DNA of 15,144 nt from a virus. Positions 203-13,095 of the stretch are shown here, piece after piece. Where the stretch lies: the UHGV virus genome UHGV-2113352; one strand, written 5' to 3'. A program made the translations under genes and the position numbers. The number at the start of each line of letters is the position of its first letter. The first letter of the stretch is position 1. Below the pieces are notes generated by a model that had not been told where the DNA came from, made no database searches, and worked only from the letters and a program-made list of their open reading frames with translations.

Positions 203-694
203 TTAAAGAAAAATATTCATAGCCAAGAATCCGACACCTCCAGCCAACACCAAGATACCTAAAACAACTATGGTTCGTAGCCCGCTTATCGATCTTTGCT
301 GAGACTCCGCCGCCGCCTCTAACTTGCTTTTCAATTCCGCTAATTGTTTAGCAATGCGGCTATCACTTGCTGTGCAGCCTTGTTCAAACTGCTCAGGTGT
401 TACAAACTTCAAGGCTGCAACCTCACGCCTTAGTTTCAACTGTTCATCTTTGATCTGGCCTAGAAGATCATTTAGTGACATAAGGCGACCGTCAAACTCT
501 TCAAATTTATTCGAGTTCTTCGTAAACAATTCAGCGTGTTCATAAGCTAGATTTACGAGCGTTGATTTCGCAGCCTCTATCTCAGTTCTTGCATCGCTGA
601 CGGCGCTCAACAGGCCATTAAACTGTGCCACTTGCGTCGATTGCTCTTCGAGTGAATCGATTACCCGGTGTAGTTTCTGTATGTCATTCACCAA
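203..694 (-). CDS. Small coiled-coil protein with C-terminal transmembrane anchor; third gene of the candidate defence operon
   Basis: 163-aa ORF. Charged, Leu-rich, heptad-like central region followed by a hydrophobic C-terminal segment (TIVVLGILVLAGGVGFLAMNIFL). Its start (TTG 692-694 or GTG 689-691) overlaps the stop of the upstream giant gene (TGA 688-690). A Shine-Dalgarno-like AAGGGG lies on the minus strand at about 700-705. No family recognised. Confidence 0.6.
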   Translation of the reverse strand: MVNDIQKLHRVIDSLEEQSTQVAQFNGLLSAVSDARTEIEAAKSTLVNLAYEHAELFTKNSNKFEEFDGRLMSLNDLLGQIKDEQLKLRREVAALKFVTPEQFEQGCTASDSRIAKQLAELKSKLEAAAESQQRSISGLRTIVVLGILVLAGGVGFLAMNIFL

Positions 695-3600
695 TTAATC
701 CCCTTGTATAGGCTGGTAAGTTTTTCAAGTCTAATTGCCAGTGGAGCTAACAAAGTGTGATAGGAGAACGGATCTCCTAGCTCTTCATTTACTTCCCCAA
801 GAAAATCCAAATCTTCAAATTTCTCATGGACCAAACGAGCAAAGCGACTTCGCGCATTTTCAGAAAATATTGGTTTTAACTGCATAGTTTTTCGGACCAG
901 CTCTAGTGCTTCATCCCTATTATCACTGATCAACCGATCAAATGACGATGCCATTCTTCGCTCTCCATCTGCATCATCAAACTCATCGGAAGCTAGTCGC
1001 AGCACACCACTCAAGTAGTTCAAGAATGCATTATCTTTGTATGACTCTAGGAATCGAGAAATCTGACCTCGTAGGATCGTCATCTTCTCGCTGCTTACTA
1101 AATGTTCCGAGCCCTCTTCTTCATCAGTTTCAAAAAAAACTGATGGCCATAACCTCACCGACACAGAATTCTCAGCCATATTGAGCAAAAGTTGGCTCGA
1201 CTTGTCGTGTCTGAAATAACCCTCTAACTTCTCCTTAAATTCTTTACCATCCATCCTGCCTTCAGCAAATAAACTACAGTGTTCATAAACATTCTTCTGT
1301 GACTGGCGGCGGTTGTAGACAAAATGGTCATAGGACCAAAGTAAAAGAACAAGAAAGATAAATTGCGATTTATCGATAGACCCTTTTCTCAGCTTGTCGC
1401 AGAGAATTTTGTAGTACTGGTTATCACTACTGAACACATCAGCGAGCTTAAACTCAGGATCATACTTTCTGACGGTATGCTCAATTTTCTTTTCCAGGCC
1501 TTCTTCCGATAGGCACTGGAACTCGACAGAGAGCGTTCCATTAAAAAAGTCTTCGATTACCCAGTCAGAGACAATACCTAATTGAGAAAGGCGGTAGATA
1601 GCCTTTTCCAATTTAAACTTTTCCGTACCAAACTGCCTGGCAGTAATGGTCACCGTGTTGTGTTCCTGATTGTACTTAAAAAATTCGTATACATTTGCCA
1701 TCAACTTGAACTCATCATTGATTGTGTCCAAGCCGTTTGTCATCAGGAATAGATTTGTGTTCAGGTCGCTATCGCGACTCAATGACTTCACGTACTCCTT
1801 CAGATCTTTGACGTTCGTGCTAGCGTCCCAAATCTTGTCGAGAATAGCTGAATTGGGCTCTTTTGTGAGAAGCACATAGCAATCTGCGGGTACTTCCTTG
1901 AATAGTTTTTTATCTCGCCCTGCCCTGCCAGCTTCCTGATACAAGGCCTCCATCGACCCAGGTATTCCGAAGTGAACCGTATAGGCAATATTTCCCTTAT
2001 TCACGCCCATTCCGAATGCCTTAGTGGCAGTAAGTAGGCGGTATTTATTTTCTTTAAAATCGTCTTGAACTTGGCGCTTATATCTATCGAAAGCCTCTCC
2101 CTGCAATCCACCCATTTTCGGAGCCGACCCCGAAAAATATCTAACATCCATCTTCAAGAGTGTTGATATTCGGCCCGCTAAGCTATAACACCCCTTAGCT
2201 CCGTTGACGGTAGAAGTGAATATGATCCCCGCCTTATTGCCGTCTTCCCCATCTGAATTCCATTTACCCTCCATTTCAGAAACAAGCTCGACGACTGCAT
2301 CACCTTTACGGCCTTTATCGTCAATGACGTGGAATGATAGTTCCTCGCGAGTGAAGTCCATGGGGGTACGGACAAAATCATCTGGGATATCAAACTCTGT
2401 TTGAATATCCTTTAGGACGTTAACTGATGCTGTTGCCGTTAGACCTATATAACTCGCACTGGGAGCAAACCGTTCGATTGTATTTGCCAGGTTCAGATAA
2501 GAAGTCCTGAAATCATGTCCCCACTCAGACAAACAGTGAGCTTCATCGATCACCGCGTAGGCAAATGAGAGATCTAGTCCGATAGCCAACATCTCTTTTC
2601 TAAACGCATGGGTTTGGAATCGCTCAGGCGATATAAAAACGAAGAAGTACTTACCACGTCCGAAATCTCTCTGAACTTTGGCCTTCTCTCCTGCCTTCAA
2701 ATCACTTGTAATAAAATTGCTTCGAGTGAAGCCGATGCTATCCAAATCTGCTTTCTGGTCATACATCAAACTTTTTATCGGGCACACGACAAAGCTAACG
2801 GCTGGTTGCAGGACCGCAGACAGCTGGTAACAAATCGACTTACCCGAACCTGTAGGCAGCAATCCTATTGTGCCGTTTTTCGAAAGTGCAGATCCTATGA
2901 TACCAACCTGCCCTTCCCTGAAATCTACATCCTCTAGGTATGGTAGAAACAGGTTGCTGAGGAAGTATCTCAGCGACTCTCTCTGCTCGCTGCCTGGGCT
3001 AAGATCTAGCTTGTAGGTAATGGGGTTACTACATGAAAGCTCGAAAAAGTCATAGTCAATCAATTGACTGGTTTCTATTGAAACAGCATCAGAATCTTCG
3101 AAGTTTCGATAGAAATCGAAGTAATCCGTACGTGAATATATGACGTCTTGGTTAACTTGAAAGGAATCGTCATAACGCTCCAGTAAGCTGAAGTCGATGA
3201 ATATATTTTCACCAGACCGTTCGCTCGGAAGCTCATCTGATTCGATCAGCGCAACCTCAATTCGCTTTTCTTCAATGCCGATGAGACGAAAGATATTCGA
3301 TAACAAATCGTTCAGGTCGTCCAGTGCCGCTTCAGCAAAATCAGTTCCATCACGATTGACTATGAATAGTTTTTTCAACTCCCCTAGTCTGATCTGACCG
3401 CGTTCAAGAAGCTCTAATAACAGTATCTGGAAACGCAACGCCGAGGTCAGCCTCAATCGCGAGTCAGTAACATCGACTCCATTTTCATAAGCCTCTTGGT
3501 AATTCAATAAAGAAATACCATTAGGAGGCGTTAGGACACCATTTCGCTCTAGACTATCAACGAGCTGAATTTGAGAAATAATCGAATTTATCTTACTGAT

Positions 3601-5364
3601 AAATGACTGATTCTCAGATGCCACTTCTCGAACAGTGAAACGAACTGTCTTCAGTCCCAAGGTTTCAGTAAACGCATCCCTCATCTCATCTAAATGCTGA
3701 GAATTTTGGTGCTGTTGACCATCTATCTCAATAATTAAACCAACTTGAGGAATGTAAAAATCTACCTGTCGGTTCTGGAATTGTTCAACGTAGACCTGAG
3801 TCATATCGTAAATCTGAACTTCAGGGAGCATTAGTTGTTTTACAAAAATGTACTCACCGAAATACTTTGGAATCAGCTCATCAAAAAACCTTTTCGCTGG
3901 GTAGTACCCAGAATGCTTGTTGCCTCGAATCAATCTATTCCAAAAAACTGGCTTATCTGACACAAGAGCCTGAGCTGATGTATTAAGACCGCTCTTCTCC
4001 AGTTCAATGCCAAATGCCTTCCTCAGTTTCCGCGAGGCTATTGTTGGCTTCCCTCTCTGAAGCATATTCTTAAGAACTTGAATTGCTGCAAATAGCTGTC
4101 CAGACGCCGCTTCAGACGAGATAGAATACTGGAGAAGATTGTGGAAAATGAAGTTATGGTTGGTTCTCGCGTAGTTAGCAGAAAACTTCTTGCTTACAAG
4201 CCTGCTACTAGACTTCGACCTGACATGTCTAGATAGTTCACTTTCGTCCGCCAGCGAGTCGATGATTGGGTTGTACAAATCTGAAAACAGTTGGTTATTG
4301 TGTTGTTGTTCTTGGCTGTCAGTGCCTAGCTCCAATCTATAGAGAGTTTTAACCAACGTAAAAATGTAAATACTTGAATTCGGAAAAGCTTGAGATAGAC
4401 AGCGTGTTATCTCATCAGTTGTAGCCCCCGAAGTTAATACGTCGTCAATGATCAGAAATGTCGGATTTGAATTAGCTTCTATTGAATCAAAATCGGCTTT
4501 ATAGGCACCTCTGACCTGGTGGAGTCTTTGTGCTGCAGTGCAATTAGTCGATTTATCTAATACGTGATCTTTCTCTAATATCTTAGGTTGGTAAGAAGCC
4601 CCTAAAGCAACAGCCAGCGATTTGCCCAAGGTATCTAATGCTTTATCGTCATCTTCAGCCCTAAGCTCAGCGTGACCTAACGCTCGAACAACTATATCTA
4701 TGGCTGGGAATGAAGGAGCTAGCTCAACAGTCTTGTTAACCCAGCGGCGAACAGAAGTATTCTTGTTATCCTTGAAAGACCAAACTTCCTGTTTGATACC
4801 ATCTAAATAGAATCCCAGATGAAGTTTATTCCCAGATTGTATTAACTCAGAACGTCCAGTTCTTGCGGAGCTCCGCGTCGAGTTTTTTCCAATAAGCTCG
4901 GAGAGACTGCTTATTCCCTTATGTGACGAATCGATCTCCGAGGCAGAACCCCAATCTACTGAGAAAAACTCAACTCCTGCATTGGAAGCAGCGTCTCGAT
5001 CTAGGTTACTATCTCCTAAATAAATTGACTCGTCGGCGCTAACACCGAAGTACTCGAGAATACGAGTAACGCCCTCAGGGCTCGGCTTATGCTGCGTTAC
5101 ATCATGGTAGGCTACTACATAATCAACAGTGATACTGAAGTGTTTGAGTAGCCCCTGAACGTAGTTCGAAGGCGCATTCGAGAAGATAGCAACCTTGATT
5201 CCAACCGACCGAGCCGTTGTAACAAGGCCGACAACGTCCTGATTGATGACACAACCATTAAAGTACCTGGGTATGTCTCTCCATCGGCCAGCTGACCGAA
5301 GTGGTTCGAGGCTTGATGTATCAATAAGCGTGTCATCAAGATCGAGGACGATGACCTTTATCAC
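688..5364 (-). CDS. Giant multidomain protein: N-terminal HAD-type phosphatase, phosphoribosyltransferase (PRTase), DUF559 (Vsr-like) endonuclease-like domain, RecQ-like SF2 helicase, and an unassigned ~400-aa C-terminal region
   Basis: 1558-aa uninterrupted ORF. HAD motif I LDLDDTL (aa 7-13) and motif IV GDSNLD (aa 117-122), nt about 4945-5364. PRTase PRPP-binding motif FLIIDDVLTSGATT (aa 303-316, nt 4417-4458). DUF559-type motif VDFYIPQVGLIIEIDGQQH followed by ..RD..L..G..RF (aa 534-577, nt about 3565-3957). RecQ-type helicase motifs: Walker A LPTGSGKS (aa 836-843, nt 2836-2859, checked against DNA), VIDEAHCLSEWGHDFR (aa 938-953, checked), LTATA (aa 975-979), YQEAGRAGRD (aa 1142-1151). GTG start at 5362-5364 overlaps the TGA stop of the upstream DprA-like gene (GTGA); SD-like AAGGTGG sits 6 nt upstream. 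Confidence 0.85.
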   Translation of the reverse strand: MIKVIVLDLDDTLIDTSSLEPLRSAGRWRDIPRYFNGCVINQDVVGLVTTARSVGIKVAIFSNAPSNYVQGLLKHFSITVDYVVAYHDVTQHKPSPEGVTRILEYFGVSADESIYLGDSNLDRDAASNAGVEFFSVDWGSASEIDSSHKGISSLSELIGKNSTRSSARTGRSELIQSGNKLHLGFYLDGIKQEVWSFKDNKNTSVRRWVNKTVELAPSFPAIDIVVRALGHAELRAEDDDKALDTLGKSLAVALGASYQPKILEKDHVLDKSTNCTAAQRLHQVRGAYKADFDSIEANSNPTFLIIDDVLTSGATTDEITRCLSQAFPNSSIYIFTLVKTLYRLELGTDSQEQQHNNQLFSDLYNPIIDSLADESELSRHVRSKSSSRLVSKKFSANYARTNHNFIFHNLLQYSISSEAASGQLFAAIQVLKNMLQRGKPTIASRKLRKAFGIELEKSGLNTSAQALVSDKPVFWNRLIRGNKHSGYYPAKRFFDELIPKYFGEYIFVKQLMLPEVQIYDMTQVYVEQFQNRQVDFYIPQVGLIIEIDGQQHQNSQHLDEMRDAFTETLGLKTVRFTVREVASENQSFISKINSIISQIQLVDSLERNGVLTPPNGISLLNYQEAYENGVDVTDSRLRLTSALRFQILLLELLERGQIRLGELKKLFIVNRDGTDFAEAALDDLNDLLSNIFRLIGIEEKRIEVALIESDELPSERSGENIFIDFSLLERYDDSFQVNQDVIYSRTDYFDFYRNFEDSDAVSIETSQLIDYDFFELSCSNPITYKLDLSPGSEQRESLRYFLSNLFLPYLEDVDFREGQVGIIGSALSKNGTIGLLPTGSGKSICYQLSAVLQPAVSFVVCPIKSLMYDQKADLDSIGFTRSNFITSDLKAGEKAKVQRDFGRGKYFFVFISPERFQTHAFRKEMLAIGLDLSFAYAVIDEAHCLSEWGHDFRTSYLNLANTIERFAPSASYIGLTATASVNVLKDIQTEFDIPDDFVRTPMDFTREELSFHVIDDKGRKGDAVVELVSEMEGKWNSDGEDGNKAGIIFTSTVNGAKGCYSLAGRISTLLKMDVRYFSGSAPKMGGLQGEAFDRYKRQVQDDFKENKYRLLTATKAFGMGVNKGNIAYTVHFGIPGSMEALYQEAGRAGRDKKLFKEVPADCYVLLTKEPNSAILDKIWDASTNVKDLKEYVKSLSRDSDLNTNLFLMTNGLDTINDEFKLMANVYEFFKYNQEHNTVTITARQFGTEKFKLEKAIYRLSQLGIVSDWVIEDFFNGTLSVEFQCLSEEGLEKKIEHTVRKYDPEFKLADVFSSDNQYYKILCDKLRKGSIDKSQFIFLVLLLWSYDHFVYNRRQSQKNVYEHCSLFAEGRMDGKEFKEKLEGYFRHDKSSQLLLNMAENSVSVRLWPSVFFETDEEEGSEHLVSSEKMTILRGQISRFLESYKDNAFLNYLSGVLRLASDEFDDADGERRMASSFDRLISDNRDEALELVRKTMQLKPIFSENARSRFARLVHEKFEDLDFLGEVNEELGDPFSYHTLLAPLAIRLEKLTSLYKGINW

Positions 5365-6347
5365 AGCAGGCCACCTTTTGCTTTCAATGACCCAAATGAA
5401 CTCGCGATATCTTCTAATTGAAGACGAATATCTTCATAAGATTCGCTCGTGTATGGTATCGCCCTCCCTTCGTTAACTAGCTGTTGAGTTCCTGAAATTG
5501 CCTTGATAGTAAGATCTGGATACTTAGCTTTATGTACGTCAGGAACGAAGACAGGACGCATCATAGAGATAGCAGATTTGACTGCGTGCATCGTCCCACC
5601 ATCTATCGAAGTTTCAATAGCAAAGACGGCAGTAGATAAACCTGCTTGTATCCTGTCTCGCTTAGCAAAGAACGCAGGTATTGCTTTGGTTCCTGGTGCA
5701 TTCTCTGCAACTAGAAGTCCGCCCTCGTCCAATATTTCCTTAGCGAGTTCCCGATTACTTGCGGGAGAAATAGACTCCACATCGACAAGAACAGAAATCG
5801 TTGGTGTTTTGGCATCTAATGCCGCGCGATGAGCAATTGTATCGATACCCAGTGCAAGTCCACTGACTATCGTGAAGCCATAAGTCGCAAACTTTTGAAT
5901 AGTTTTAATCGTTAGGGTTTCACCCTTGGGGGTATTTTCACGAGTTCCTACAACAGCTAATGAAAGCCTATTCTCTAAGAGATTTAGATTGCCTTTACAG
6001 TAAAGAAAGGGTGGAGGTTTTGGGAGATCATATAACGAAATTGGATAGTTTTTCGAACCGAAGATAACAATCTCAACTCCTTTATTTTTGAACGAATCAA
6101 TCTCTGTTTTTACTTCGTCCCTGAGAGCCTGGAAGTTCGCAGCGTCGAAGAAACTTTCGAGAGTTGCTCGAGATTTACCATTTGAGATTTTCAGATTGGA
6201 GGAGTTACGTACCAGTTCTTCGAGTGTTGACACTCCGCTGTACGCTGAAAACTTTAAGATTGACAGAACAGTTTCATCACCAACGCTCATTAACTTCTTG
6301 AGAACAAGAGCATCTACAATGTTCACTTCTCCCCCAAAGAACGACAA
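5361..6347 (-). CDS. DprA/Smf-like (SLOG superfamily) Rossmann-fold protein; first gene of the candidate defence operon
   Basis: 328-aa ORF. The central region (LAVVGTRENTPKGE..IVSGLALGIDTIAHRAAL..TISVLV..GGLLVAENAPGT..FFAKRDRIQAGLS..VFAIETSIDGGTMHAV) follows the conserved pattern of the DprA Rossmann domain (GxR.., SGLAxGID..AH..AL, FxxRNRiIaGLS, ..SG). The first start on the track is TTG at 6345-6347; the true start may be the downstream GTG (codon 8) or ATG (codon 20). Confidence 0.75.
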   Translation of the reverse strand: MSFFGGEVNIVDALVLKKLMSVGDETVLSILKFSAYSGVSTLEELVRNSSNLKISNGKSRATLESFFDAANFQALRDEVKTEIDSFKNKGVEIVIFGSKNYPISLYDLPKPPPFLYCKGNLNLLENRLSLAVVGTRENTPKGETLTIKTIQKFATYGFTIVSGLALGIDTIAHRAALDAKTPTISVLVDVESISPASNRELAKEILDEGGLLVAENAPGTKAIPAFFAKRDRIQAGLSTAVFAIETSIDGGTMHAVKSAISMMRPVFVPDVHKAKYPDLTIKAISGTQQLVNEGRAIPYTSESYEDIRLQLEDIASSFGSLKAKGGLL

Positions 6348-6460: not shown

Positions 6461-7672
6461 TCAAACTAATGCAGCTATGCCTTTTACCTTGCTTAAAAGT
6501 TCAAGCTGTCGTGAATAAGGTTTTGCGCAATAGTAGGCTTTGATAATCTGCCCCGGTGTCGCATCGCCGGGGTCGAGTCCTTCCTCGCCCAAACACGCTA
6601 CTTTGACATTAAGACCGATACTGGTCAGTCGCCTGGCTGCGGCCATCGTGTTGCGTATAGCTTGCTTTTCACTATCCCACATCATAATCACATTACGTAA
6701 TCCACGCGCCTTGAGCGTCAGGAACGCGCCCAACTGATCTTCTGCATCCTGAGTGGTGTTACCAGATAGATGCATCCCGAACGTTCCTATCGGTTCCACG
6801 TAATCGCGTAATGTTTCTTCATCAAAAATAGCTCGTTTAACCCCCATAACATCGAACGCCCCCTCACAGACAACTACAGTCTGTTTGCCGACTGCATTGT
6901 GGCCGTTGTAGAGAAATTTACCCGATGCTGGCAGCTGCATGGGGAACAGATACCGGCGTTCTGCTGCACCGGTAATGTCACGACCCTGGAAGGTCTTCAT
7001 CACGCCATCCAGATCGTAAACCGGTATCAGTATTCGCATATCGAATACCTGTCCTTTGACCTGGTCTGTGTACGGATCGACGTATGCGTGCTTGCCTTCG
7101 ACGCAGTAACGCAGATCAAAGTATTTGGCCAGCTCCGGGGAAATCTGGCGCTCCACCAGATAATCAGGAAGACGACCGTCAATGGGGAGTTCGTAATGGC
7201 GCGGGAGAGCTACCGGTCCTTCCAGTTCAACCTTGCTGGCCAGTACGATCTCTTCCTTCTTCGGTGCCCATCCTTGTGAGATCAGCGCGTTCTGGACGTA
7301 CTCTTCAAAATCGCGACGAGATTTGCCGCTGTAATGCTTTAGGAAGACCAGCTTGTTGAACTGAATCTTTTCGGGATGATCACCTGCAAAGCATTTGCCG
7401 ACACCACTGGTCAGGTTGAAATAAACCTTCCAGTTTGAGCTGCCGCATACCGGACACTCTTTAATGTTGACCTCTCGTCCGCGAGTACTGACTCCACCAC
7501 GACGGTAGATGATCCCTTCCATATCGAGCCATTGCTCAAAATCCAGCTCGGTCAGTAATTCTTTCAAGTCGCTCACGTTCTTACCCCTATTTTTTGCAGG
7601 TAATATCTTGATAAGCCTCGGTATTTGAATATCATAAAGGCTCATGTGTTTTTTCTTTTGTGGTTTTGGCAA
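6461..7672 (-). CDS. DNA primase, phage T4 gp61-like (zinc ribbon plus TOPRIM)
   Basis: 403-aa ORF. Zinc-ribbon motif CPVCGSSNWKV..C..DH; the stretch ILIPVYDLDGVMKTFQGRDI..VVVCEGAFDVMGV resembles the T4 gp61 primase core (..IPIYN..G....FQGRAL..VYVLEGPIDSLF) as I remember it. Lies directly downstream of the helicase gene, as gene 61 follows gene 41 in T4. The track start is TTG 7670-7672; an in-frame ATG at 7643-7645 (MSLYDIQ..) is a plausible alternative start. Confidence 0.7.
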   Translation of the reverse strand: MPKPQKKKHMSLYDIQIPRLIKILPAKNRGKNVSDLKELLTELDFEQWLDMEGIIYRRGGVSTRGREVNIKECPVCGSSNWKVYFNLTSGVGKCFAGDHPEKIQFNKLVFLKHYSGKSRRDFEEYVQNALISQGWAPKKEEIVLASKVELEGPVALPRHYELPIDGRLPDYLVERQISPELAKYFDLRYCVEGKHAYVDPYTDQVKGQVFDMRILIPVYDLDGVMKTFQGRDITGAAERRYLFPMQLPASGKFLYNGHNAVGKQTVVVCEGAFDVMGVKRAIFDEETLRDYVEPIGTFGMHLSGNTTQDAEDQLGAFLTLKARGLRNVIMMWDSEKQAIRNTMAAARRLTSIGLNVKVACLGEEGLDPGDATPGQIIKAYYCAKPYSRQLELLSKVKGIAALV

Positions 7673-7700: not shown

Positions 7701-7736
7701 GGCGTGGAGAGTGTTTCCCCACGCCTTCTTTTTTAG
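7701..7736 (+). terminator. Hairpin plus T-run between helicase and primase genes, oriented as a plus-strand intrinsic terminator
   Basis: GGCGTGG (7701-7707), 11-nt loop, CCACGCC (7719-7725), then TTCTTTTTT. The T-run follows the stem only on the plus strand; on the minus (coding) strand it is an A-run preceding the stem. The T-run overlaps the helicase stop codon (7733-7735). Confidence 0.3.
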
Positions 7737-9073
7737 AGGACGTCCATAATGCGTTCGATGAATCGCATTTGTTCGAGGTTCTGCTTAACGCGGATGCTTA
7801 CGCCGCCTTTCTGGTTACGTGAACCAGCGAAGTAAAGACGCGCTTCGCCTTTCGCTTCTTCTTCTTCCGTTTTGTTGATAGTGATAACGAGGTCAGCGAT
7901 ACGCACCTTCTCGATGTTGTCCGCTGCGTGCATCATTGTAGCCACCTCAGAAGCGCCACCTTCTCTGTTAGTCTGCGATGCCGTGATGCCGGCAACGTTG
8001 TGTTTGTCGTACAGCGCACGCAGGTCAGTGTAGATGCTGCGAATGTTAGCGCGGTCGTCGCGGAGGTCGTAGCTGGCACGCATCAGGTCAGCGTAGTCGA
8101 CCACAACCATATCGGGGACCATACCGTTGGCTTTCATGCTGCCCAACATACGGTCCAGATCTGCGGGCGACATGCTTCCGGACGGTCGTTCAACAATCCA
8201 CAAACTTCCCACGCCTTTCGTCGCACCCAGCTCCGCCAGTTTGCGATGGACGTCATCGCGACGTTCCACCAGCCTGGACATTTCGGTCTCAGACAGACGG
8301 GCGTCAAAGCGATCTGACAGAATGGAGGTGTGAACTTCCAGCGACAGATACAGGACGTTGTAACCGGCAAGCGTGGCGTTGATGGAAAACTCCCCCATCG
8401 CCGTCGATTTACCAGACTTAGCGAAGCCCATAAATAGCACCATTTCACGCTTTGCCCAGCCTTTCTGGTAAAGCAGCTTGTCGAGCAGCGGGAGGCCGGT
8501 AGTGATGCTGTTTGGCACGTAATCGTCGGACGCTTCGTACTCACGGGCCTTGTAACGCTCCGCTGATTCTGCGAAGTAATCGTAAATGCCGGTCGCTTCG
8601 TTAGAGCCAATTTGCTGGACCTTAGCCATGATTGCCATCGCGCCCTGGAAATCGCCCTTCTCTTTCATCTCAGCCGCTTTAATTAGCGCATCGTCGAAAG
8701 CTACGCTTTTAGCAAATGTCGCGACCTGGTCGACCATGTACGCCGTATCTGACAGCTTCTCAGCGAGAATGCGCTTAAACGCCTCAACAACGTCAGGGAA
8801 CAGCTCTTCGCGGATCGTCTTATCGCGTTTGGCGCGTTTGAGCATGTCGAGGATGGCTGATGATGATGGTGCGCTCTTATACATTCTGTAGTAGCCCGAC
8901 ACCATGTTAACCAGAATGGAGTTAGCCGCATTAGAGAACTGGTTTGGGGCAACCAGATCGCCTGCGCGAGTCAGAAACTCATGGTCGCGACAGAAGTAGG
9001 CAGCGAGTCTATTCTGGAAGTCGTCGTCGAACTCTTCAGACAACCCTCGTCCTGTGTGGCAAAGTTCGGTCAT
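7733..9073 (-). CDS. Replicative DNA helicase, DnaB family, phage T4 gp41-like
   Basis: 446-aa ORF. Walker A GFAKSGKST; NVLYLSLEV and VVVDYADLM segments and the C-terminal region parallel T4 gp41 (NVLYISMEM, IIIVDYLGI) as I remember it. ATG start at 9071-9073 with SD-like AAGGAAAG 6-7 nt upstream on the minus strand. Confidence 0.8.
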   Translation of the reverse strand: MTELCHTGRGLSEEFDDDFQNRLAAYFCRDHEFLTRAGDLVAPNQFSNAANSILVNMVSGYYRMYKSAPSSSAILDMLKRAKRDKTIREELFPDVVEAFKRILAEKLSDTAYMVDQVATFAKSVAFDDALIKAAEMKEKGDFQGAMAIMAKVQQIGSNEATGIYDYFAESAERYKAREYEASDDYVPNSITTGLPLLDKLLYQKGWAKREMVLFMGFAKSGKSTAMGEFSINATLAGYNVLYLSLEVHTSILSDRFDARLSETEMSRLVERRDDVHRKLAELGATKGVGSLWIVERPSGSMSPADLDRMLGSMKANGMVPDMVVVDYADLMRASYDLRDDRANIRSIYTDLRALYDKHNVAGITASQTNREGGASEVATMMHAADNIEKVRIADLVITINKTEEEEAKGEARLYFAGSRNQKGGVSIRVKQNLEQMRFIERIMDVL

Positions 9074-9092
9074 GTGCTTTCCTTTGATACTT

Positions 9093-9112
9093 AAACAAAT
9101 TGTTTTCTAATA
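9093..9112 (-). promoter_or_regulatory. Candidate promoter/operator upstream of the helicase gene (motif B, copy 1)
   Basis: Plus-strand AAACAAATTGTTTTCTAATA; read on the minus strand it is TATTAGAAAACAATTTGTTT. It contains the inverted repeat AACAA-N-TTGTT, lies 20-39 nt upstream of the helicase ATG, and has a -10-like TAGTAT/TATTAG with a -35-like TTGATC 17 bp further upstream (plus 9132-9137). It matches 18 of 20 positions with 12013-12032. Confidence 0.4.
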
Positions 9113-9133
9113 CTAGAAAATCCAGATAGGGGA

Positions 9134-9859
9134 TCAACAGAATCGCCGTGCTTCTTCCAGTTCTTCCGGGAAATGCGCATAAATTACACGCTCAGGTACG
9201 ATTTCCATCAACCAGACTGCGGAGAAGATGATGCGGATGCGTTTATCTCGGGTAATGCCACGCAGACGCTCCAGAATCCACTCAAAATAGCGTTCTTGAA
9301 TCGGGTCGTGCTGCATGTCTCCCAGATACTTAAAACTCACCAGAGAGTCATCCAGACGGGTTACAGCGCGTTTGGCTAACTTCTCTTCGAATATCTCGAT
9401 CAGCTCGGGCTGCCAGAGATGCTGGGGGCGAGGCAATTTGTCCCACAGACGGCGCGCAGCTGCGGACAGAACGGTAGAAATGAAGTAGTCATAAGAGCAG
9501 CAGTACTGGTCGGCAAACTGGCGTGCTTTCCAGAGAGACGTTTTGTTGACCGTCGACAACTCCTGATATGGCACACGCTTCAGACCGGTTGTGAATGGAG
9601 CCGTCTCATAGTGTTCACGACCATGCGACAGCATGATGTATGAGTACTGGCGCTTGTATGCCTCAGTGAAAAGGCATGTGGCCATGAGCGGGTGCATATC
9701 GCGATAGTCAAACCATTTGGTTTCGAACAGTTCCGCCTCGTCCTTGCAACGTGACAGGCCAATGTTCTCCGCGACCCACTTATCCATGACTGCGGTGTTC
9801 CACTCTGTCATGAAATCGTACTGGTCATTGTCGATAGTGTTGAAGAAGATCTGGCTCAC
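9134..9859 (-). CDS. Hypothetical protein, first gene of the helicase-primase operon
   Basis: 241-aa ORF with GTG start at 9857-9859 and SD-like AAAGGGAA upstream. Co-directional and closely spaced with the helicase gene. No family recognised by eye. Confidence 0.55.
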   Translation of the reverse strand: MSQIFFNTIDNDQYDFMTEWNTAVMDKWVAENIGLSRCKDEAELFETKWFDYRDMHPLMATCLFTEAYKRQYSYIMLSHGREHYETAPFTTGLKRVPYQELSTVNKTSLWKARQFADQYCCSYDYFISTVLSAAARRLWDKLPRPQHLWQPELIEIFEEKLAKRAVTRLDDSLVSFKYLGDMQHDPIQERYFEWILERLRGITRDKRIRIIFSAVWLMEIVPERVIYAHFPEELEEARRFC

Positions 9860-9964: not shown

Positions 9965-9978
9965 GTCTTTTAAAAGAC
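9965..9978. promoter_or_regulatory. Perfect 14-bp palindrome GTCTTTTAAAAGAC in the divergent intergenic region
   Basis: Self-complementary 14-mer, flanked by CGGAAG (left) and CTTCCG (right) inverted segments and followed by an AT-rich tract (about 9990-10035). Lies between the divergently transcribed replication operon and the GIY-YIG-like gene. Confidence 0.35.
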
Positions 9979-10159
9979 CTGCTTCCGTATATATTTAATA
10001 AGTTACTTATTATTTATATACAGAAACAGGCATAACTTGTCGTCTTAGACACCCAGAAGCTCTACACTTTGAGCCTGTAAAATTGATTAAAAACTTATGT
10101 GTAAAATAGAACGCATTAGTCAGTAGCTAAGAGATGATTTATCGGTATACGCGAGATCA

Positions 10160-10897: not shown

Positions 10898-10949
10898 AGC
10901 TGACACTGTACTTATGCATTGGCGCGTACATTGCGCCAATGCATAATTT

Positions 10950-11309
10950 TTAACCTTTCTTCATCAACTCTCGTTTGATTTCATCGGTACGCATCGTGAC
11001 ATCGGCAGCTGTGATCGCCTCGTTAAGTTTCACGATGTCCTCGATTTCCTGCGGTGACTTCTCTGCCAGATGGAAAATGGCTGCGCGAATCACGTCAGAA
11101 CGGGTGAACTTCTCGAAACGAGGGATGAACTTCATCATTTCCAGCAGTTCGAAGTATTCGTCCTCCAGTGACATTGTGCGGCTTTTAATTTTCTCTTTGC
11201 CACGAGTCGGGCGTCCCTGTGGTCTGACTGGTTGGCGCAAAGGAGTTGTGTTCTTGGCCGGTGCATCAGGCTCTTTGCGCTTTGCTAGGTCACCCATTTT
11301 CATGGACAT
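10950..11309 (-). CDS. Putative partition adaptor / centromere-binding protein (ParG/ParB-like small partner of ParA)
   Basis: 119-aa ORF immediately downstream of the ParA-like gene; its ATG (11307-11309) overlaps the ParA TAA by 1 nt. Basic, Pro-rich N-terminal tail and a helical C-terminal half, as in small type Ib partition partners. Assignment is by position and composition only. Confidence 0.45.
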   Translation of the reverse strand: MSMKMGDLAKRKEPDAPAKNTTPLRQPVRPQGRPTRGKEKIKSRTMSLEDEYFELLEMMKFIPRFEKFTRSDVIRAAIFHLAEKSPQEIEDIVKLNEAITAADVTMRTDEIKRELMKKG

Positions 11310-11977
11310 TATTCTTCTTCCTCCAGACTCAACAGATAATCTACAAATTCTTCAAACTCGGCTTCCGCCTTTTTGTCGCGCTCGCTACCGGTCATTTCAA
11401 AGATAGAACGACCAGACTCTTCCGCATCATCATAGACGTTGCGGTTATATAAATTGACTGGCGCAGACTCGATGCCAAACGTCTCGACAATCTCTTTAGC
11501 CGCCAAAATGCGAGACACTTGTGATGGCAAAGCCGGGCACTGGTTCATGACCGCGCGGACCTTCACTTTATCGTTTACATTACGAACATTGTCGATAATA
11601 GGATCGATGTCACGCAGAGATTTCAAATCACGACGCTTAGGACGAAGCGGGATAATGATAACGTCGGCCATCAGCATCGCTTGTCGCTGAATTTCGGAGT
11701 CAAAGCCACCAGCATCTACCACTACAAACTCAGCTCTACCCTGAAGCGATTTTAGGTGCTTAATGATGTCATCCTGAACGTATGCAAAAGGAATCAGCTC
11801 AAGGTCTTCGTTCTGTCGACGGTCTTCACACCAGCTTGTTGTCGTGCGCTGAATATCTATATCAGTGATATAAACCTTCTTCTTCTTTTTGACTTTCAGG
11901 CAAACGGCAATTTGCTGGGCAACAGTGGATTTGCCAGGCCCGCCCTTTGTGCCGCCAACCACAAAGATCTTGGTCAT
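11309..11977 (-). CDS. parA: ParA-family partition ATPase (short, type Ib-like)
   Basis: 222-aa ORF. Deviant Walker A IFVVGGTKGGPGKST near the N-terminus and VVVDAGG (Walker A'/B-like); the size is typical of plasmid ParF/ParA type Ib ATPases. ATG at 11975-11977 with SD-like AAAGGGAA upstream. Confidence 0.65.
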   Translation of the reverse strand: MTKIFVVGGTKGGPGKSTVAQQIAVCLKVKKKKKVYITDIDIQRTTTSWCEDRRQNEDLELIPFAYVQDDIIKHLKSLQGRAEFVVVDAGGFDSEIQRQAMLMADVIIIPLRPKRRDLKSLRDIDPIIDNVRNVNDKVKVRAVMNQCPALPSQVSRILAAKEIVETFGIESAPVNLYNRNVYDDAEESGRSIFEMTGSERDKKAEAEFEEFVDYLLSLEEEE

Positions 11978-12012
11978 TGGAGAGTTCCCTTTGCGTATAT
12001 AATTATCGTCTG

Positions 12013-12032
12013 AAACAACTTGTTTTCTTATA
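12013..12032 (-). promoter_or_regulatory. Candidate promoter/operator upstream of parA (motif B, copy 2)
   Basis: Plus-strand AAACAACTTGTTTTCTTATA; minus-strand sense TATAAGAAAACAAGTTGTTT with a -10-like TATAAG and the inverted repeat AACAA-N-TTGTT. Lies 36-55 nt upstream of the parA ATG. Confidence 0.4.
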
Positions 12033-12256
12033 TGTGATATAGCCTAAATGCCTACGGCTGCGGTGTAAAGGTTATTTAGTAGGTTGTTATTGCCTATTGC
12101 TAGTAACTGTTTTCATTTGTCTGTTGAAAAAAGTGACAATCATCTCTATATTACGAGTACGGTAAATTGCCGTACACAATTTGATGACACATACGCAATG
12201 GGCTATAGCCCAGTTAAATAACCTTTGAGTCGAAAACTCAGTTTAAATAGAGAGCA

Positions 12257-12296: not shown

Positions 12297-12566
12297 ATGT
12301 CCGCACTGAAAAAGCAGCGCATCGATTTGAGATTAACCGATGACGATAAAAGCATCATCGAGGAAGCTGCCGCAATGTCTAACCAGAGCATTACCCAGTT
12401 CATGGTTAGCAGTGCATCCGAACGTGCCGTGAAGGTGATAGAGCAACACCGTAGACTGGTTCTAAGTGAAGAGTCCTGGAATCTGGTTATGGATGCTATA
12501 AGCAATCCTCCGGCACCGAACGACAAGCTGAAACGAGCTGCCAATCGTCTGAAAAGCATGGAGTAA
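12297..12566 (+). CDS. DUF1778 (RHH-type) antitoxin of a GNAT toxin-antitoxin pair (TacA/AtaR-like)
   Basis: 89-aa ORF MSALKKQRIDLRLTDDDKSIIEEAAA..SNPPAPNDKLKRAANRLKSME closely matches the TacA/AtaR antitoxin family as I remember it. Sits 7 nt upstream of the GNAT toxin gene. AGGGGG SD before the ATG. Confidence 0.8.
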   Translation: MSALKKQRIDLRLTDDDKSIIEEAAAMSNQSITQFMVSSASERAVKVIEQHRRLVLSEESWNLVMDAISNPPAPNDKLKRAANRLKSME

Positions 12567-12573
12567 TTTACTC

Positions 12574-13095
12574 GTGAGCAATACGACGATCGAGATTTTC
12601 TCTGGAGAGAACGATTATGATCTAAACGGTTTTGATTGCGGCGAAGAGTCACTAAACGCATTTTTGACCAACCACTTAAAAAGACAGCATGAAGGAAAAA
12701 TTCTTCGCGCTTATGTGCTTTGCACTAAAGAAGAAATACCAAAGGTATTAGGTTATTACACTTTGTCAGGCAGCTGCTTTGAGAAAGAAACCTTACCTTC
12801 AAAGAGTCAGCAAAAGAAAGTGCCTTATCGGAATGTCCCAAGTATCACTTTAGGCAGACTGGCTTTGGACAAATCTCTTCAAGGTCAGGGGCTTGGCTCA
12901 ATGCTTGTAACTCACGCAATGCGTGTTGTGTACAATGCATCTCTTGCGGTAGGCATTCATGGGCTTTTCGTTGAGGCGTTGAACGATAAAGCCAGGGCGT
13001 TTTATAAAAGTTTGGGCTTTATCCAGCTGGTTGGTAACAACGATCGTTCTTTGTTCTATCCAACAAAATCTATCGAAAAATTGTTCGAAGAATAA
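12574..13095 (+). CDS. GNAT-family acetyltransferase toxin (TacT/AtaT-like, aminoacyl-tRNA acetylating)
   Basis: 173-aa ORF with GTG start. Acetyl-CoA binding motif QGQGLGSMLV; size and the upstream DUF1778 antitoxin are typical of TacAT/AtaRT/KacAT modules. Confidence 0.8.
   Translation: MSNTTIEIFSGENDYDLNGFDCGEESLNAFLTNHLKRQHEGKILRAYVLCTKEEIPKVLGYYTLSGSCFEKETLPSKSQQKKVPYRNVPSITLGRLALDKSLQGQGLGSMLVTHAMRVVYNASLAVGIHGLFVEALNDKARAFYKSLGFIQLVGNNDRSLFYPTKSIEKLFEE

What the first reader, a model, noticed from the sequence alone, without database searches (positions are those of the whole stretch)
9093..9112. Shared promoter/operator-like motif B upstream of the helicase gene and parA
The 20-mers at 9093-9112 and 12013-12032 match at 18 positions. 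Read in the minus-strand sense each is TAT(T/A)AG-AAAACAA-N-TTGTTT: a -10-like hexamer followed by a short inverted repeat (AACAA-N-TTGTT), placed 20-55 nt upstream of the start codon. For the helicase copy a -35-like TTGATC sits 17 bp upstream of TAGTAT. This looks like a promoter with an operator overlapping the transcription start, shared by the replication and partition operons.
Basis: seen in the sequence. Interest (0 to 1): 0.55.

Follow-up and report, generated by a model that had tools for sequence, protein, structure and literature searches.

The report
Genome-wide operator of SSU5-type phage-plasmids
The two matching 20-mers are real and conserved, but they are two of about twenty copies of a palindromic regulatory site placed just after the promoters of many genes in SSU5-type phage-plasmids, so they mark a genome-wide control circuit and not a private link between replication and partition.

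Summary
9093-9112 and 12013-12032 match at 18/20 positions (20/23 over 9090-9112 vs 12010-12032), and no shuffle gave two copies. The window comes from an SSU5-like phage-plasmid.

Both sites persist upstream of the helicase gene and parA in seven of eight lineages. In several of these the flanking non-coding DNA has diverged almost completely.

The motif, AGAAAACAA-N-TTGTTTA, is the most over-represented word in these genomes. SSU5 has 11 perfect and 20 near-perfect copies, all intergenic, against about 0 and 0.4 expected. Copies typically lie 12 nt after a (TGn)GATAAT -10, in front of early, late, nucleotide-metabolism, helicase and parA genes.

The likely promoters are:
- P_parA: TTTACA-N17-TAGGCT, operator at about +6 to +24.
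- P_hel: TTGATC-N16-TAGTAT, operator over the start site.

The best reading is a DNA operator for a global repressor encoded by the element, comparable to the P1 C1 operator set. The binder is unresolved. Candidates are the RHH-like protein encoded after parA, or an FljA-family protein.

I found no description of this motif in the searchable literature. It is a new member of a known kind.

The parts
9090..9112 (-). Operator copy at the helicase promoter. Read on the minus strand: TATTAGAAAACAATTTGTTTAAG. Perfect palindromic core AAACAA-N-TTGTTT at 9093-9105.
   Evidence: Conserved in 7 of 8 lineages.
12010..12032 (-). Operator copy at the parA promoter. Read on the minus strand: TATAAGAAAACAAGTTGTTTCAG. 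Perfect core at 12013-12025.
   Evidence: Conserved in all 8 lineages, with the right half degenerate in L144.
9110..9137 (-). Inferred helicase promoter P_hel: -35 TTGATC (9137-9132), 16-nt spacer, -10 TAGTAT (9115-9110). Predicted start is near 9103, so the operator spans about -6 to +14. The -35 overlaps the stop codon (9134-9136) of the upstream 241-aa ORF.
   Evidence: The architecture is retained as TTGAGC-N16-CATAAT-N4-AAAACAA in L133/L137. It scores 8/12 to consensus and was not called by the simple scan.
12041..12069 (-). Inferred parA promoter P_parA: -35 TTTACA (12069-12064), 17-nt spacer, -10 TAGGCT (12046-12041). Predicted start is near 12034, so the operator spans about +6 to +24.
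   Evidence: TAGGCT keeps a fixed 14-nt distance from AAAACA in L133, L136 and L137, with -35 TTGTCA/TTTACA at 17-18 nt.
7733..9073 (-). DnaB-like helicase gene, the first gene downstream of the 9090-9112 site.
   Evidence: Pfam DnaB_C, E=6.5e-13. Annotations in relatives.
11309..11977 (-). Small (222 aa) ParA/MipZ-type partition ATPase.
   Evidence: Pfam MipZ/AAA_31/CbiA. PHROG 164, ParA-like.
10950..11309 (-). 119-aa gene overlapping the parA stop codon. Inferred ribbon-helix-helix-like partition adaptor and a candidate binder of the motif. It has a disordered basic N-terminus, an invariant IKSRTMS-EDE stretch and an invariant FTRSDVIRAAI helix.
   Evidence: There is no Pfam, PDB or hhalign support for the fold, so the fold assignment is an inference from sequence pattern.
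10912..10946 (.). G+C-rich hairpin, terminator-like on the + strand, lying between the convergent 119-aa gene and the GIY-YIG gene. It closes the two-gene par operon.

Best explanation
Both 20-mers are copies of one operator, AGAAAACAA-N-TTGTTTA. This is the signature regulatory site of SSU5-type phage-plasmids of Enterobacteriaceae.

Proposed mechanism. A sequence-specific DNA-binding protein encoded by the element binds the palindrome, either as a dimer or as two dimers one helical turn apart. The site lies immediately downstream of, or across, the transcription start of sigma-70-type promoters. Binding would block open-complex formation or promoter escape. About 20 promoters per genome carry the site. 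They drive small early genes, the terminase/structural operon, nrdB, cobT, Ant, a methylase, the helicase operon and parA. Several promoters have a second, inverted copy or half-copy over the -35, 51 bp upstream, which would allow cooperative binding.

In this window. At P_parA (TTTACA-N17-TAGGCT) the operator lies at about +6 to +24 and throttles the par operon, which stays moderately expressed in lysogens. At P_hel (TTGATC-N16-TAGTAT) it lies across the start site and keeps the phage helicase/primase low in the plasmid state.

Shown:
- The family exists and is statistically enriched.
- Its members are exclusively intergenic (all 20 in SSU5, 15 of 18 in Cyrano).
- It keeps a fixed spacing to -10 elements.
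- The two window sites are conserved across diverged lineages.

Inferred:
- The transcription start positions.
- That the site represses, and the direction of the effect.
- The identity of the binder.

My ranking of binders: the RHH-like protein encoded after parA, about 0.35 (autoregulation plus global control, like omega or KorB); another protein of the element, about 0.3; the FljA-family protein, about 0.15; a host factor, about 0.1.
For: Family and enrichment:
- SSU5 has 11 perfect and 20 copies with at most 1 mismatch, against 0.0 and 0.4 in first-order Markov simulations. All 20 lie in the 11.5% of the genome that is non-coding, and 17 lie within 120 nt upstream of an annotated start.
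- Cyrano has 9 perfect copies (expected 0.03) and 18 with at most 1 mismatch (expected 0.7).
- AGAAAACAA is the top 9-mer in SSU5 in an unbiased word count.

Fixed architecture:
- The (TGn)GATAAT/TATTAT/GAAAAT -10 lies 12-13 nt upstream of AAAACAA in about 9 SSU5 and 8 Cyrano promoters. The distance from the site to the start codon varies between 9 and 49 nt. The site is therefore tied to the promoter, not to the ribosome-binding site.

DNA level:
- The core is a perfect palindrome with an unconstrained centre and equally conserved C(-3)/G(+3).
- Inverted distal copies or half-copies overlap the -35, 51 bp from the proximal copy.
- The RNA hairpin is negligible (-0.7 kcal/mol, z=0.74) and there is no Rfam match.

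Conservation:
- The motif and its architecture are unchanged in elements from Klebsiella, Enterobacter wuhouensis and Nissabacter and in metagenomic lineages whose proteins are only 48-79% identical.

Repression:
- In the Cyrano lysogen RNA-seq data (PMC9928086, supplementary table), genes behind motif-bearing promoters sit at background, 5-13 against a median of 9.8, although their -10 elements look good. Exceptions are parA at 50, its downstream gene at 89, the helicase at 21 and CYRAN_111 at 25.5.

Binder candidates:
- The motif is the only non-promoter element conserved in the parA promoter across lineages.
- The predicted DNA-reading stretch of the 119-aa protein is invariant wherever the motif is intact. 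It is altered (IKSRSLS) in the one lineage where both sites are degenerate.
Against: - No transcription start, binding or reporter data exist for any of these sites. The -10/-35 assignments score only 8/12 to consensus, and the simple promoter scan did not call them.
- Most phage genes are silent in a lysogen anyway, so the RNA-seq correlation is weak.
- The motif is asymmetric outside the core (AGA on the left, A on the right) and almost always in the sense orientation. This fits a leader or RNA role for at least the left half.
- In the Moellerella phage-plasmid the left half, AAGAAAA(A)CAA, persists 12 nt after extended -10 elements without the right half. Part of the motif may therefore be an intrinsic leader element.
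- Against the parA-linked protein as binder: a single palindrome is unlike the multi-repeat arrays typical of small-ParA systems. A distant homologue (L142) does have such arrays on both sides of its operon. Moellerella keeps the protein but lacks the motif family.
- The fold of that protein could not be confirmed.
Confidence: 0.6

Rival explanations
1. This is a private operator shared only by the replication (helicase) and partition (parA) operons, with TAT(T/A)AG serving as the -10 hexamer and the inverted repeat overlapping the start site.
For: Within this 15-kb window only these two copies exist. Both precede the named genes.
Against: There are about 20 copies per genome in front of unrelated genes. 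Family consensus at the supposed -10 is AAYAAG, with G at position 6, and it reads CATAAG in diverged parA promoters. Better-placed, positionally conserved -10 elements lie upstream.
Confidence: 0.03
2. The sites are primarily centromere-like loading sites for the partition system. The small protein encoded after parA binds the palindromes to build partition complexes, dispersed over the genome as in N15 sopC or chromosomal parS. Effects on transcription would be secondary.
For: One copy lies where small-ParA systems keep their centromere/operator, upstream of parA, in every lineage. The adjacent 119-aa protein has the layout of such adaptors, with a flexible basic N-terminus and an RHH-like core. 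It is expressed in lysogens. No other repeat array is conserved around the par operon.
Against: The fixed 12-13 nt spacing to -10 elements and the paired -35/+10 arrangement point to transcription control, not segregation. A single palindrome at parA contrasts with the repeat arrays flanking the operon of the distant homologue L142. Moellerella has the adaptor but no motif family.
Confidence: 0.1
3. The motif acts in the mRNA leader. It would be a translational operator bound by the element's FljA-family protein (PF03614), whose Salmonella relative blocks translation of fliC by acting on its mRNA. This would resemble global early-gene shut-off by T4 RegA.
For: - An FljA-family protein (E=1e-80) is encoded by every Enterobacteriaceae SSU5-like element examined, including those of non-motile Klebsiella. 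It is expressed in lysogens under several conditions.
- It is absent from the Moellerella element, which also lacks the palindrome family.
- The motif lies between promoter and Shine-Dalgarno, nearly always in sense.
- The Salmonella/Citrobacter fliC leader, GCCCAATAACATCAAGTTGTAATTGATAAGGA, shares CCAATAA and CAAGTTGT with the cassette CCAATAAGAAAACAAGTTGTTTAAGGA.
- FljA-like regulators are reported to prevent fliC mRNA translation (PMC2652032).
Against: - Exact reverse-complement symmetry and the inverted copies over -35 regions, which would not be in the downstream gene's mRNA, are unexplained by single-stranded RNA recognition.
- Spacing is fixed to the -10, not to the ribosome-binding site.
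- The fliC resemblance is 8/12 in the core and was noticed after the fact. The E. coli fliC leader fits worse.
- Thirteen other SSU5 genes share the profile present in Cyrano and pMT1 but absent from Moellerella.
- No motif lies upstream of the FljA-like gene itself.
Confidence: 0.12
4. The palindrome is the binding site of a conserved host transcription factor of Enterobacteriaceae and Yersiniaceae, which the phage-plasmid exploits to tie its promoters to host physiology.
For: The motif is invariant across elements living in Escherichia, Salmonella, Klebsiella, Enterobacter, Cronobacter, Nissabacter and Yersinia. It is missing from the element of a Morganellaceae host.
Against: It does not resemble any enterobacterial factor consensus I can recall (memory only). 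Twenty copies at a fixed promoter position in a 100-kb element is the pattern of element-encoded repressors. Host chromosomes were not scanned.
Confidence: 0.08
5. There is no dedicated binder. The sequence would be an intrinsic promoter or leader module copied along with a mobile promoter cassette, for example an A-rich initial transcribed region or translation enhancer followed by a U-rich tract. The palindromy would be incidental.
For: The left half alone is retained at the same position in Moellerella promoters. Whole cassettes (terminator, -35, extended -10, motif, SD) look duplicated.
Against: At parA and the helicase gene the motif is conserved while the surrounding cassette differs entirely. 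C(-3)/G(+3) symmetry is maintained in about 38 sites. Inverted copies occur over -35 regions.
Confidence: 0.05

Closest known systems
Phage-plasmid P1 C1 repressor and its dispersed operators, including the operator controlling ban, the DnaB-like helicase (recalled from the literature, not tested here)
   Same: A plasmid-prophage has many copies of one operator scattered at promoters of unrelated operons, including a phage-encoded replicative helicase. This fits one master repressor holding the lytic programme off.
   Different: The P1 operator is, as I recall, an asymmetric 17-mer, whereas this is a 13-bp palindrome with an asymmetric AGA flank. No C1 homologue was looked for or seen. In P1 the par operon is regulated by its own proteins, whereas here parA carries the common operator.
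RK2/IncP KorB (and KorA) global regulon: 13-bp palindromic OB sites at 12 places, linking replication, partition and transfer (recalled)
   Same: A short palindrome recurs at many promoters of one replicon, and a partition-operon-encoded protein is a plausible binder.
   Different: KorB is a ParB-family HTH protein that often acts at a distance. The candidate here is a 119-aa RHH-like protein with no ParB domain. The sites sit at a fixed place next to the -10, and the sequences are unrelated.
Omega of pSM19035 and ParG of TP228: RHH centromere-binding proteins that also repress copy-number, partition and toxin-antitoxin promoters (recalled)
   Same: A small ParA is followed by a small protein with a flexible N-terminus and an RHH-like core. 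The binding site lies upstream of parA. One protein co-regulates replication-related and partition promoters.
   Different: Omega and ParG bind arrays of 7-10 heptads or 8 tetramer boxes, whereas this is one palindrome per promoter but about 20 promoters.
N15 SopB and its dispersed sopC centromeres lying in phage promoter regions (recalled)
   Same: A phage-plasmid in which palindromic sites linked to the partition system are scattered through phage genes and influence their expression.
   Different: N15 has four sites with no fixed promoter geometry. Here there are about 20 sites at a fixed offset from the -10.
Salmonella FljA acting on the fliC leader (PMC2652032 cites Bonifield & Hughes 2003 and Yamamoto & Kutsukake 2006)
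   Same: A PF03614 protein is core to these elements. The target lies between promoter and Shine-Dalgarno. There is partial sequence resemblance to the fliC leader.
   Different: FljA is described as blocking translation of one mRNA. This site has the symmetry and -35 copies of a DNA operator and about 20 targets. The binding sequence of FljA was not available to me.

Membership tests
   Family consensus at these positions is AAYAAG, with G in 17/20 SSU5 and 17/18 Cyrano sites at position 6. It reads CATAAG in diverged parA promoters.
Sigma-70 promoter (P_hel TTGATC-N16-TAGTAT; P_parA TTTACA-N17-TAGGCT) | Two hexamers close to consensus at 16-18 bp spacing, with positions conserved in relatives and a mapped start site | tested here: inconclusive
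   Each scores 8/12 to consensus, below the scan's 9/12 threshold. The hexamer positions and spacings are kept in lineages whose flanks have diverged. No start-site data are available.
Multi-copy operator set of a phage or plasmid global repressor | The same site recurs, far above chance, at many promoters of one replicon | tested here: met
   11 perfect and 20 near-perfect copies in SSU5 against 0 and 0.4 expected, all intergenic. 9 and 18 in Cyrano. Top 9-mer in SSU5.
Multi-copy operator set of a phage or plasmid global repressor | Site overlaps or abuts core promoter elements at a fixed distance | tested here: met
   The -10 lies 12-13 nt upstream in about 17 promoters. Inverted copies or half-copies lie over the -35, 51 bp away.
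Multi-copy operator set of a phage or plasmid global repressor | A cognate repressor binds the site and lowers transcription | not testable with these tools
   The only evidence is indirect. Genes behind the site are at background in the Cyrano lysogen.
Small-ParA (type Ib) centromere/operator, ParG/omega type | Located immediately upstream of parA | tested here: met
   The site lies 36-55 nt upstream of the parA start in the window and at the same place in 8 lineages.
Small-ParA (type Ib) centromere/operator, ParG/omega type | Array of several (4 or more) short direct or inverted repeats | tested here: not met
   There is one palindrome, equal to two half-sites, in the window lineage. The distant homologue L142 does have GCTTAC/GCTTGC arrays on both sides of its operon.
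Small-ParA (type Ib) centromere/operator, ParG/omega type | Sites confined to the par locus | tested here: not met
   About 20 copies are spread across the genome.
Ribbon-helix-helix fold for the 119-aa protein | Detectable similarity to RHH families or structures | tested here: not met
   No Pfam hit even at E<=10. No PDB sequence hit. The AF2 model has pLDDT 63 with no Foldseek match. hhalign to ParG and omega gives probability 0.1. The assignment rests only on the strand-helix-helix sequence pattern.
FljA (PF03614) target site | The element encodes a PF03614 protein | tested here: met
   E=1e-80 in Cyrano. The protein is present in all 12 full-length SSU5-like phage records and 831 plasmids. 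The gene lies outside this window.
FljA (PF03614) target site | Sequence resemblance to the known target, the fliC leader | tested here: inconclusive
   The Salmonella/Citrobacter leader shares CCAATAA and CAAGTTGT, giving 8/12 in the core. The E. coli leader fits worse.
Structured RNA element or known RNA family | Stable conserved fold or an Rfam match | tested here: not met
   MFE -0.7 and -4.2 kcal/mol, z-scores 0.74 and 0.18. No Rfam match at E<=1.

The most novel reading that the evidence does not exclude
The master regulator that reads this palindrome is the element's FljA-family protein. SSU5-type phage-plasmids would then run their whole lytic programme, plus helicase and parA, through an FljA-type repressor. 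The Salmonella FljA/fliC phase-variation switch would be a domesticated copy of that phage circuit, with the fliC leader mimicking the phage operator (CCAATAA...CAAGTTGT).

A second reading is nearly as unusual. The RHH-like partition adaptor encoded after parA could double as the prophage's global silencer.
Probability: 0.15. Interest if true: 0.8.

Novelty: new member of a known kind. Interest (0 to 1): 0.55.

Why it matters
SSU5-like phage-plasmids are common in clinical and animal Enterobacteriaceae. About 800 PLSDB plasmids carry this par module, and the group includes Salmonella Typhi pHCM2 and Yersinia pestis pMT1. How these elements hold the lytic programme off while replicating and segregating as plasmids appears undescribed in the literature I could search.

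A single operator in front of about 20 promoters, including the helicase, parA and the terminase operon, defines the regulon of the missing master regulator. It also gives a direct handle for finding that regulator, by DNA-affinity pull-down, EMSA or DAP-seq with a 19-bp probe. It offers a simple sequence marker for typing these elements and for predicting which cargo genes escape control.

If the binder is the partition adaptor or the FljA-family protein, the result would connect plasmid maintenance, lysogeny control and possibly flagellar phase variation.

Tried and rejected
It was not informative.
- Klebsiella phage ST13-OXA48phi12.3 looked like a natural case with the FljA-like gene but without the parA-linked protein. 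The record is a truncated prophage extract that ends before the par region.
- pMT1 lacks parA, the 119-aa gene and the helicase yet keeps 6 intact motif copies. It is 98-100% identical to SSU5 in most shared proteins, so there has been no time for decay. It gives only weak evidence.
- The Raoultella lineage (L144) has an altered strand motif and degenerate sites. I tried to obtain its full genome and found no close relative in PLSDB or IMG/VR.
- Fold of the 119-aa protein. The AF2 model was low-confidence, Foldseek found nothing, the PDB profile search gave only chance hits, Pfam gave nothing at E<=10, and hhalign to ParG and omega found nothing.
- The FljA mechanism papers (PMC1347349, PMC156219) are not held in the library.
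- Clustering of half-sites and word counts in the Moellerella plasmid revealed no replacement operator.
- CYRAN_117/SSU5_123 is RHH-like and expressed in lysogens. I considered it as binder but ranked it low, because its own operon promoter carries a different conserved palindrome, TAAGTA-N6-TACTTA.
- Literature searches for SSU5 or pHCM2 with operator, promoter, repressor or partition terms found no description of the motif.
Full report
**What the window is.** The 15,144-bp window matches E. coli plasmids of about 110 kb at 98-99% identity. It matches Salmonella phage SSU5 at about 89% and Klebsiella phage-plasmids such as pJN2-26 at about 80%. It is therefore a stretch of an SSU5-type phage-plasmid.

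On the minus strand it carries:
- a DnaB-like helicase (7733-9073)
- a primase (6461-7672)
- DprA and a 1558-aa helicase fusion
- a conserved 241-aa ORF (9134-9859)
- a 222-aa ParA/MipZ-type ATPase (11309-11977)
- a 119-aa gene (10950-11309) overlapping the parA stop codon

On the plus strand it carries a GIY-YIG protein and a DUF1778/GNAT toxin-antitoxin pair.

**Checking the observation.** The two 20-mers are AAACAAATTGTTTTCTAATA (9093-9112) and AAACAACTTGTTTTCTTATA (12013-12032), which match at 18/20 positions. The repeat finder extends the match to 20/23 over 9090-9112 and 12010-12032. Allowing three mismatches there are exactly two matches in the window. 200 dinucleotide-preserving shuffles gave a mean of 0.04 and never two. 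Each copy holds a perfect 13-bp palindrome, AAACAA-N-TTGTTT. The only correction is that the TTGATC-TAGTAT spacer is 16 bp, not 17.

**Conservation at the two positions.** Both copies are present at the orthologous places in pEC21Z137-115K, SSU5, Cyrano and pJN2-26. I also recovered more distant lineages through homologues of the 119-aa protein. In these, ParA, helicase and primase are only 63-79% identical to the window proteins, and the 119-aa protein is 48-63% identical. Their non-coding flanks are essentially unalignable, yet the motif remains:
- CATAAGAAAACAnnTTGTTTTCA before parA
- TAAGAAAACAAGTTGTTTAAAA before the helicase gene

The exception is a Raoultella lineage (L144). There the parA copy keeps only its left half and the helicase copy has decayed.

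**The motif is genome-wide.** Scanning the whole SSU5 genome gave 11 perfect and 20 single-mismatch copies of the core. First-order Markov simulations gave 0.0 and 0.4. All 20 lie in the 11.5% of the genome that is non-coding, and 17 lie within 120 nt upstream of an annotated start. Cyrano has 9 perfect copies (expected 0.03) and 18 near-perfect (expected 0.7). In an unbiased word count AGAAAACAA is the most frequent 9-mer in SSU5.

The extended consensus is AAG-AAAACAA-N-TTGTTT-A(AGG). The centre base is free, and C(-3)/G(+3) are equally conserved.

Genes behind the sites include:
- the terminase/structural operon (two copies)
- cobT, nrdB, Ant and a DNA methylase
- a run of small early genes at 81-95 kb
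- the helicase gene and parA

The same motif and layout occur in elements from Enterobacter wuhouensis, Nissabacter and other metagenomic lineages, and in Yersinia pestis pMT1.

**Promoter geometry.** In about 17 promoters of SSU5 and Cyrano, a -10 element (GATAAT, TATTAT, GAAAAT or CACAAT, mostly with an upstream TG) lies exactly 12-13 nt before AAAACAA. The distance from the motif to the start codon ranges from 9 to 49 nt. The motif is therefore positioned relative to the promoter, at about +6 to +22 of the inferred transcript.

Several promoters also carry an inverted full copy 51 bp upstream. Others carry an inverted half-copy (GTTTTCT) that coincides with the -35.

It is not a -10.

For parA, the hexamer that keeps its place is TAGGCT (12046-12041), 14 nt before AAAACA in four independent lineages. 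A TTTACA/TTGTCA -35 lies 17-18 nt away. L144 uses TTGACC-N17-TAACAT-N12 instead (read).

For the helicase gene, TTGATC-N16-TAGTAT-N3 in the window corresponds to TTGAGC-N16-CATAAT-N4 in L133/L137. There the operator lies across the start site.

These promoters score 8/12 to consensus and were not called by the simple scan. They rest on positional conservation, not on start-site data.

**DNA or RNA?** The points favouring a double-stranded DNA site bound by a symmetric protein are:
- The palindrome cannot form a meaningful hairpin (-0.7 kcal/mol, z=0.74).
- Nothing in Rfam matches.
- The symmetry is exact.
- Inverted copies sit over -35 regions, where they would not be part of the regulated mRNA.

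Two points cut the other way. The conserved AGA flank is asymmetric and the copies are almost always in sense. In the Moellerella wisconsensis phage-plasmid, early promoters keep extended -10, N12 and AAGAAAA(A)CAA but lack the right half. The left half may therefore also be an older leader element.

**Direction of control.** Public RNA-seq of the Cyrano lysogen (PMC9928086, supplementary table) shows genes behind motif-bearing promoters at background, 5-13 against a median of 9.8. Exceptions are parA at 50, the 119-aa gene at 89, the helicase at 21 and CYRAN_111 at 25.5. Good-looking promoters that are silent in the lysogen fit repression. An operon that carries the operator yet stays moderately on fits autoregulation or a weaker operator position. 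This is correlative only.

**Who binds?** There are three candidates.

(i) The 119-aa protein encoded after parA.
- It has a disordered basic N-terminus with an invariant MGDLAK motif, an invariant IKSRTMS-EDE stretch and an invariant FTRSDVIRAAI helix. This is the layout of ribbon-helix-helix partition adaptors such as ParG and omega (recalled knowledge).
- The fold could not be confirmed by any tool.
- In its favour, the motif is the only non-promoter element conserved in its own operon's promoter.
- Its putative DNA-reading stretch is invariant wherever the motif is intact, and it is altered (IKSRSLS) in L144, where both local sites are degenerate.
- It is expressed in lysogens.
- Against it, one palindrome is unlike the repeat arrays that a distant homologue (L142) has on both sides of its operon.
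- Moellerella keeps the protein (IKSRTVS) with only a degenerate site before parA and no motif family.

(ii) A PF03614 (FljA-family) protein, SSU5_121/CYRAN_114.
- It is core to all Enterobacteriaceae SSU5-like elements, including those of Klebsiella.
- It is missing from Moellerella along with the motif family.
- Its Salmonella relative is reported to prevent fliC mRNA translation.
- I verified that the Salmonella/Citrobacter fliC leader shares CCAATAA and CAAGTTGT with the cassette. The E. coli leader fits less well.
- The symmetry argument, the lack of a site at its own gene and thirteen other SSU5 genes with the same presence/absence profile keep this a lead only.

(iii) SSU5_123/CYRAN_117.
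- It is RHH-like and highly expressed.
- It has a different palindrome at its own promoter.

A host factor cannot be excluded, because host chromosomes were not scanned.

**Comparison with known systems.** Functionally this most resembles the dispersed operator set of the P1 C1 repressor, which also controls a phage DnaB-like helicase. It also resembles the global regulons of KorB (RK2) and omega (pSM19035), which tie replication and partition together. It is not a sequence member of any of these. It fails two defining features of a small-ParA centromere, namely a repeat array and restriction to the par locus. Searches of the held literature found no description of this motif or of lysogeny control in SSU5-like elements.

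**Verdict.** The promoter-plus-operator idea survives. The proposed -10 and the claimed exclusivity to replication and partition do not. What is present is one instance of a genome-wide operator family whose regulator is still unidentified. It is a new member of a known kind, of moderate interest, and the experiments needed to resolve it are clear and inexpensive.

Noticed in passing
window 9978-10030 (also SSU5 33.46-33.51 kb, 78.30-78.35 kb and the genome ends; Cyrano 31.16-31.21 kb, 78.08-78.14 kb and ends; pMT1 28.57-28.63 kb): A second shared element: a divergent cassette with arms TATACGGAAGCAGG around an AT-rich palindrome (TTTAATAAGTnACTTATTA). Each arm is followed about 20 nt later by CCCAGAC. 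There are three copies per genome. One lies upstream of terS at the cos junction and one lies in this window between the 241-aa/helicase operon and the GIY-YIG gene.
   Followed up: partly
window 10950-11309 (-): The 119-aa gene after parA is annotated 'RelE/ParE putative toxin' in phage Cyrano and 'hypothetical' elsewhere. Its sequence pattern and position fit a partition adaptor, not a toxin. In the SSU5 RefSeq record its start is annotated too far downstream, since tblastn aligns the full length at 31162-31518.
   Followed up: partly
outside the window: Cyrano 100780-101301, SSU5 96897-97415, pMT1 34465-34992: Every Enterobacteriaceae SSU5-like phage-plasmid, including those of non-motile Klebsiella, encodes a full-length FljA-family protein (phase-1 flagellin repressor, PF03614). 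The sequence looks like two Sm/Hfq-like repeats. It is absent from the Moellerella relative.
   Followed up: partly
Cyrano 105062-105143; L146 7951-8017: A different conserved palindrome, TAAGTA-N6-TACTTA, sits in the divergent promoter region between the UvsW-like helicase operon and the ParB-nuclease-like genes. The UvsW-like operon includes the RHH-like 92-aa protein CYRAN_117. This suggests a second regulatory circuit. The related word ACTTACTTA occurs 13 times in SSU5.
   Followed up: no
window 9132-9137: The -35 hexamer of the inferred helicase promoter overlaps the stop codon (9134-9136) of the upstream 241-aa ORF. The helicase can therefore be transcribed both by read-through from upstream and from its own operator-controlled promoter.
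   Followed up: no
window 12124-12152 (+) and 12297-13095 (+): A strong consensus promoter (TTGAAA-N17-TATATT, 10/12) drives the DUF1778/GNAT (TacAT/KacAT-like) toxin-antitoxin pair divergently from parA. This pair is among the most highly expressed Cyrano genes in the lysogen (344-592 against a background of 9.8). SSU5 has a different gene at this position.
   Followed up: partly
window 688-6347 (-): A 1558-aa fusion protein (HAD hydrolase, DUF559/endonuclease-like and DEAD/Helicase_C domains) plus DprA form a variable island. The nearest plasmids carry fimbrial genes and a Phd/Doc pair at the same place.
   Followed up: no
Moellerella wisconsensis plasmid NZ_CP093251.1 (L159-L162), e.g. 51.6-54.0 kb and 60.7 kb: This is a distant SSU5-like phage-plasmid from Morganellaceae, with proteins 35-85% identical and the same synteny. 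Its early promoters keep TGnCATAAT-N12-AAGAAAA(A)CAA but not the TTGTTT half. It also carries an 8-copy element, GCCTAGCTCCCATAGTATTTA.
   Followed up: partly
Yersinia pestis pMT1 (NC_003134.1; L157-L158): pMT1 is 98-100% identical at the protein level to SSU5 in most of the genes they share. It has lost the helicase, primase, small parA and the 119-aa gene, using a P1-type ParAB instead, as well as the nrd-to-methylase block and most early genes. It keeps six intact copies of the operator.
   Followed up: yes
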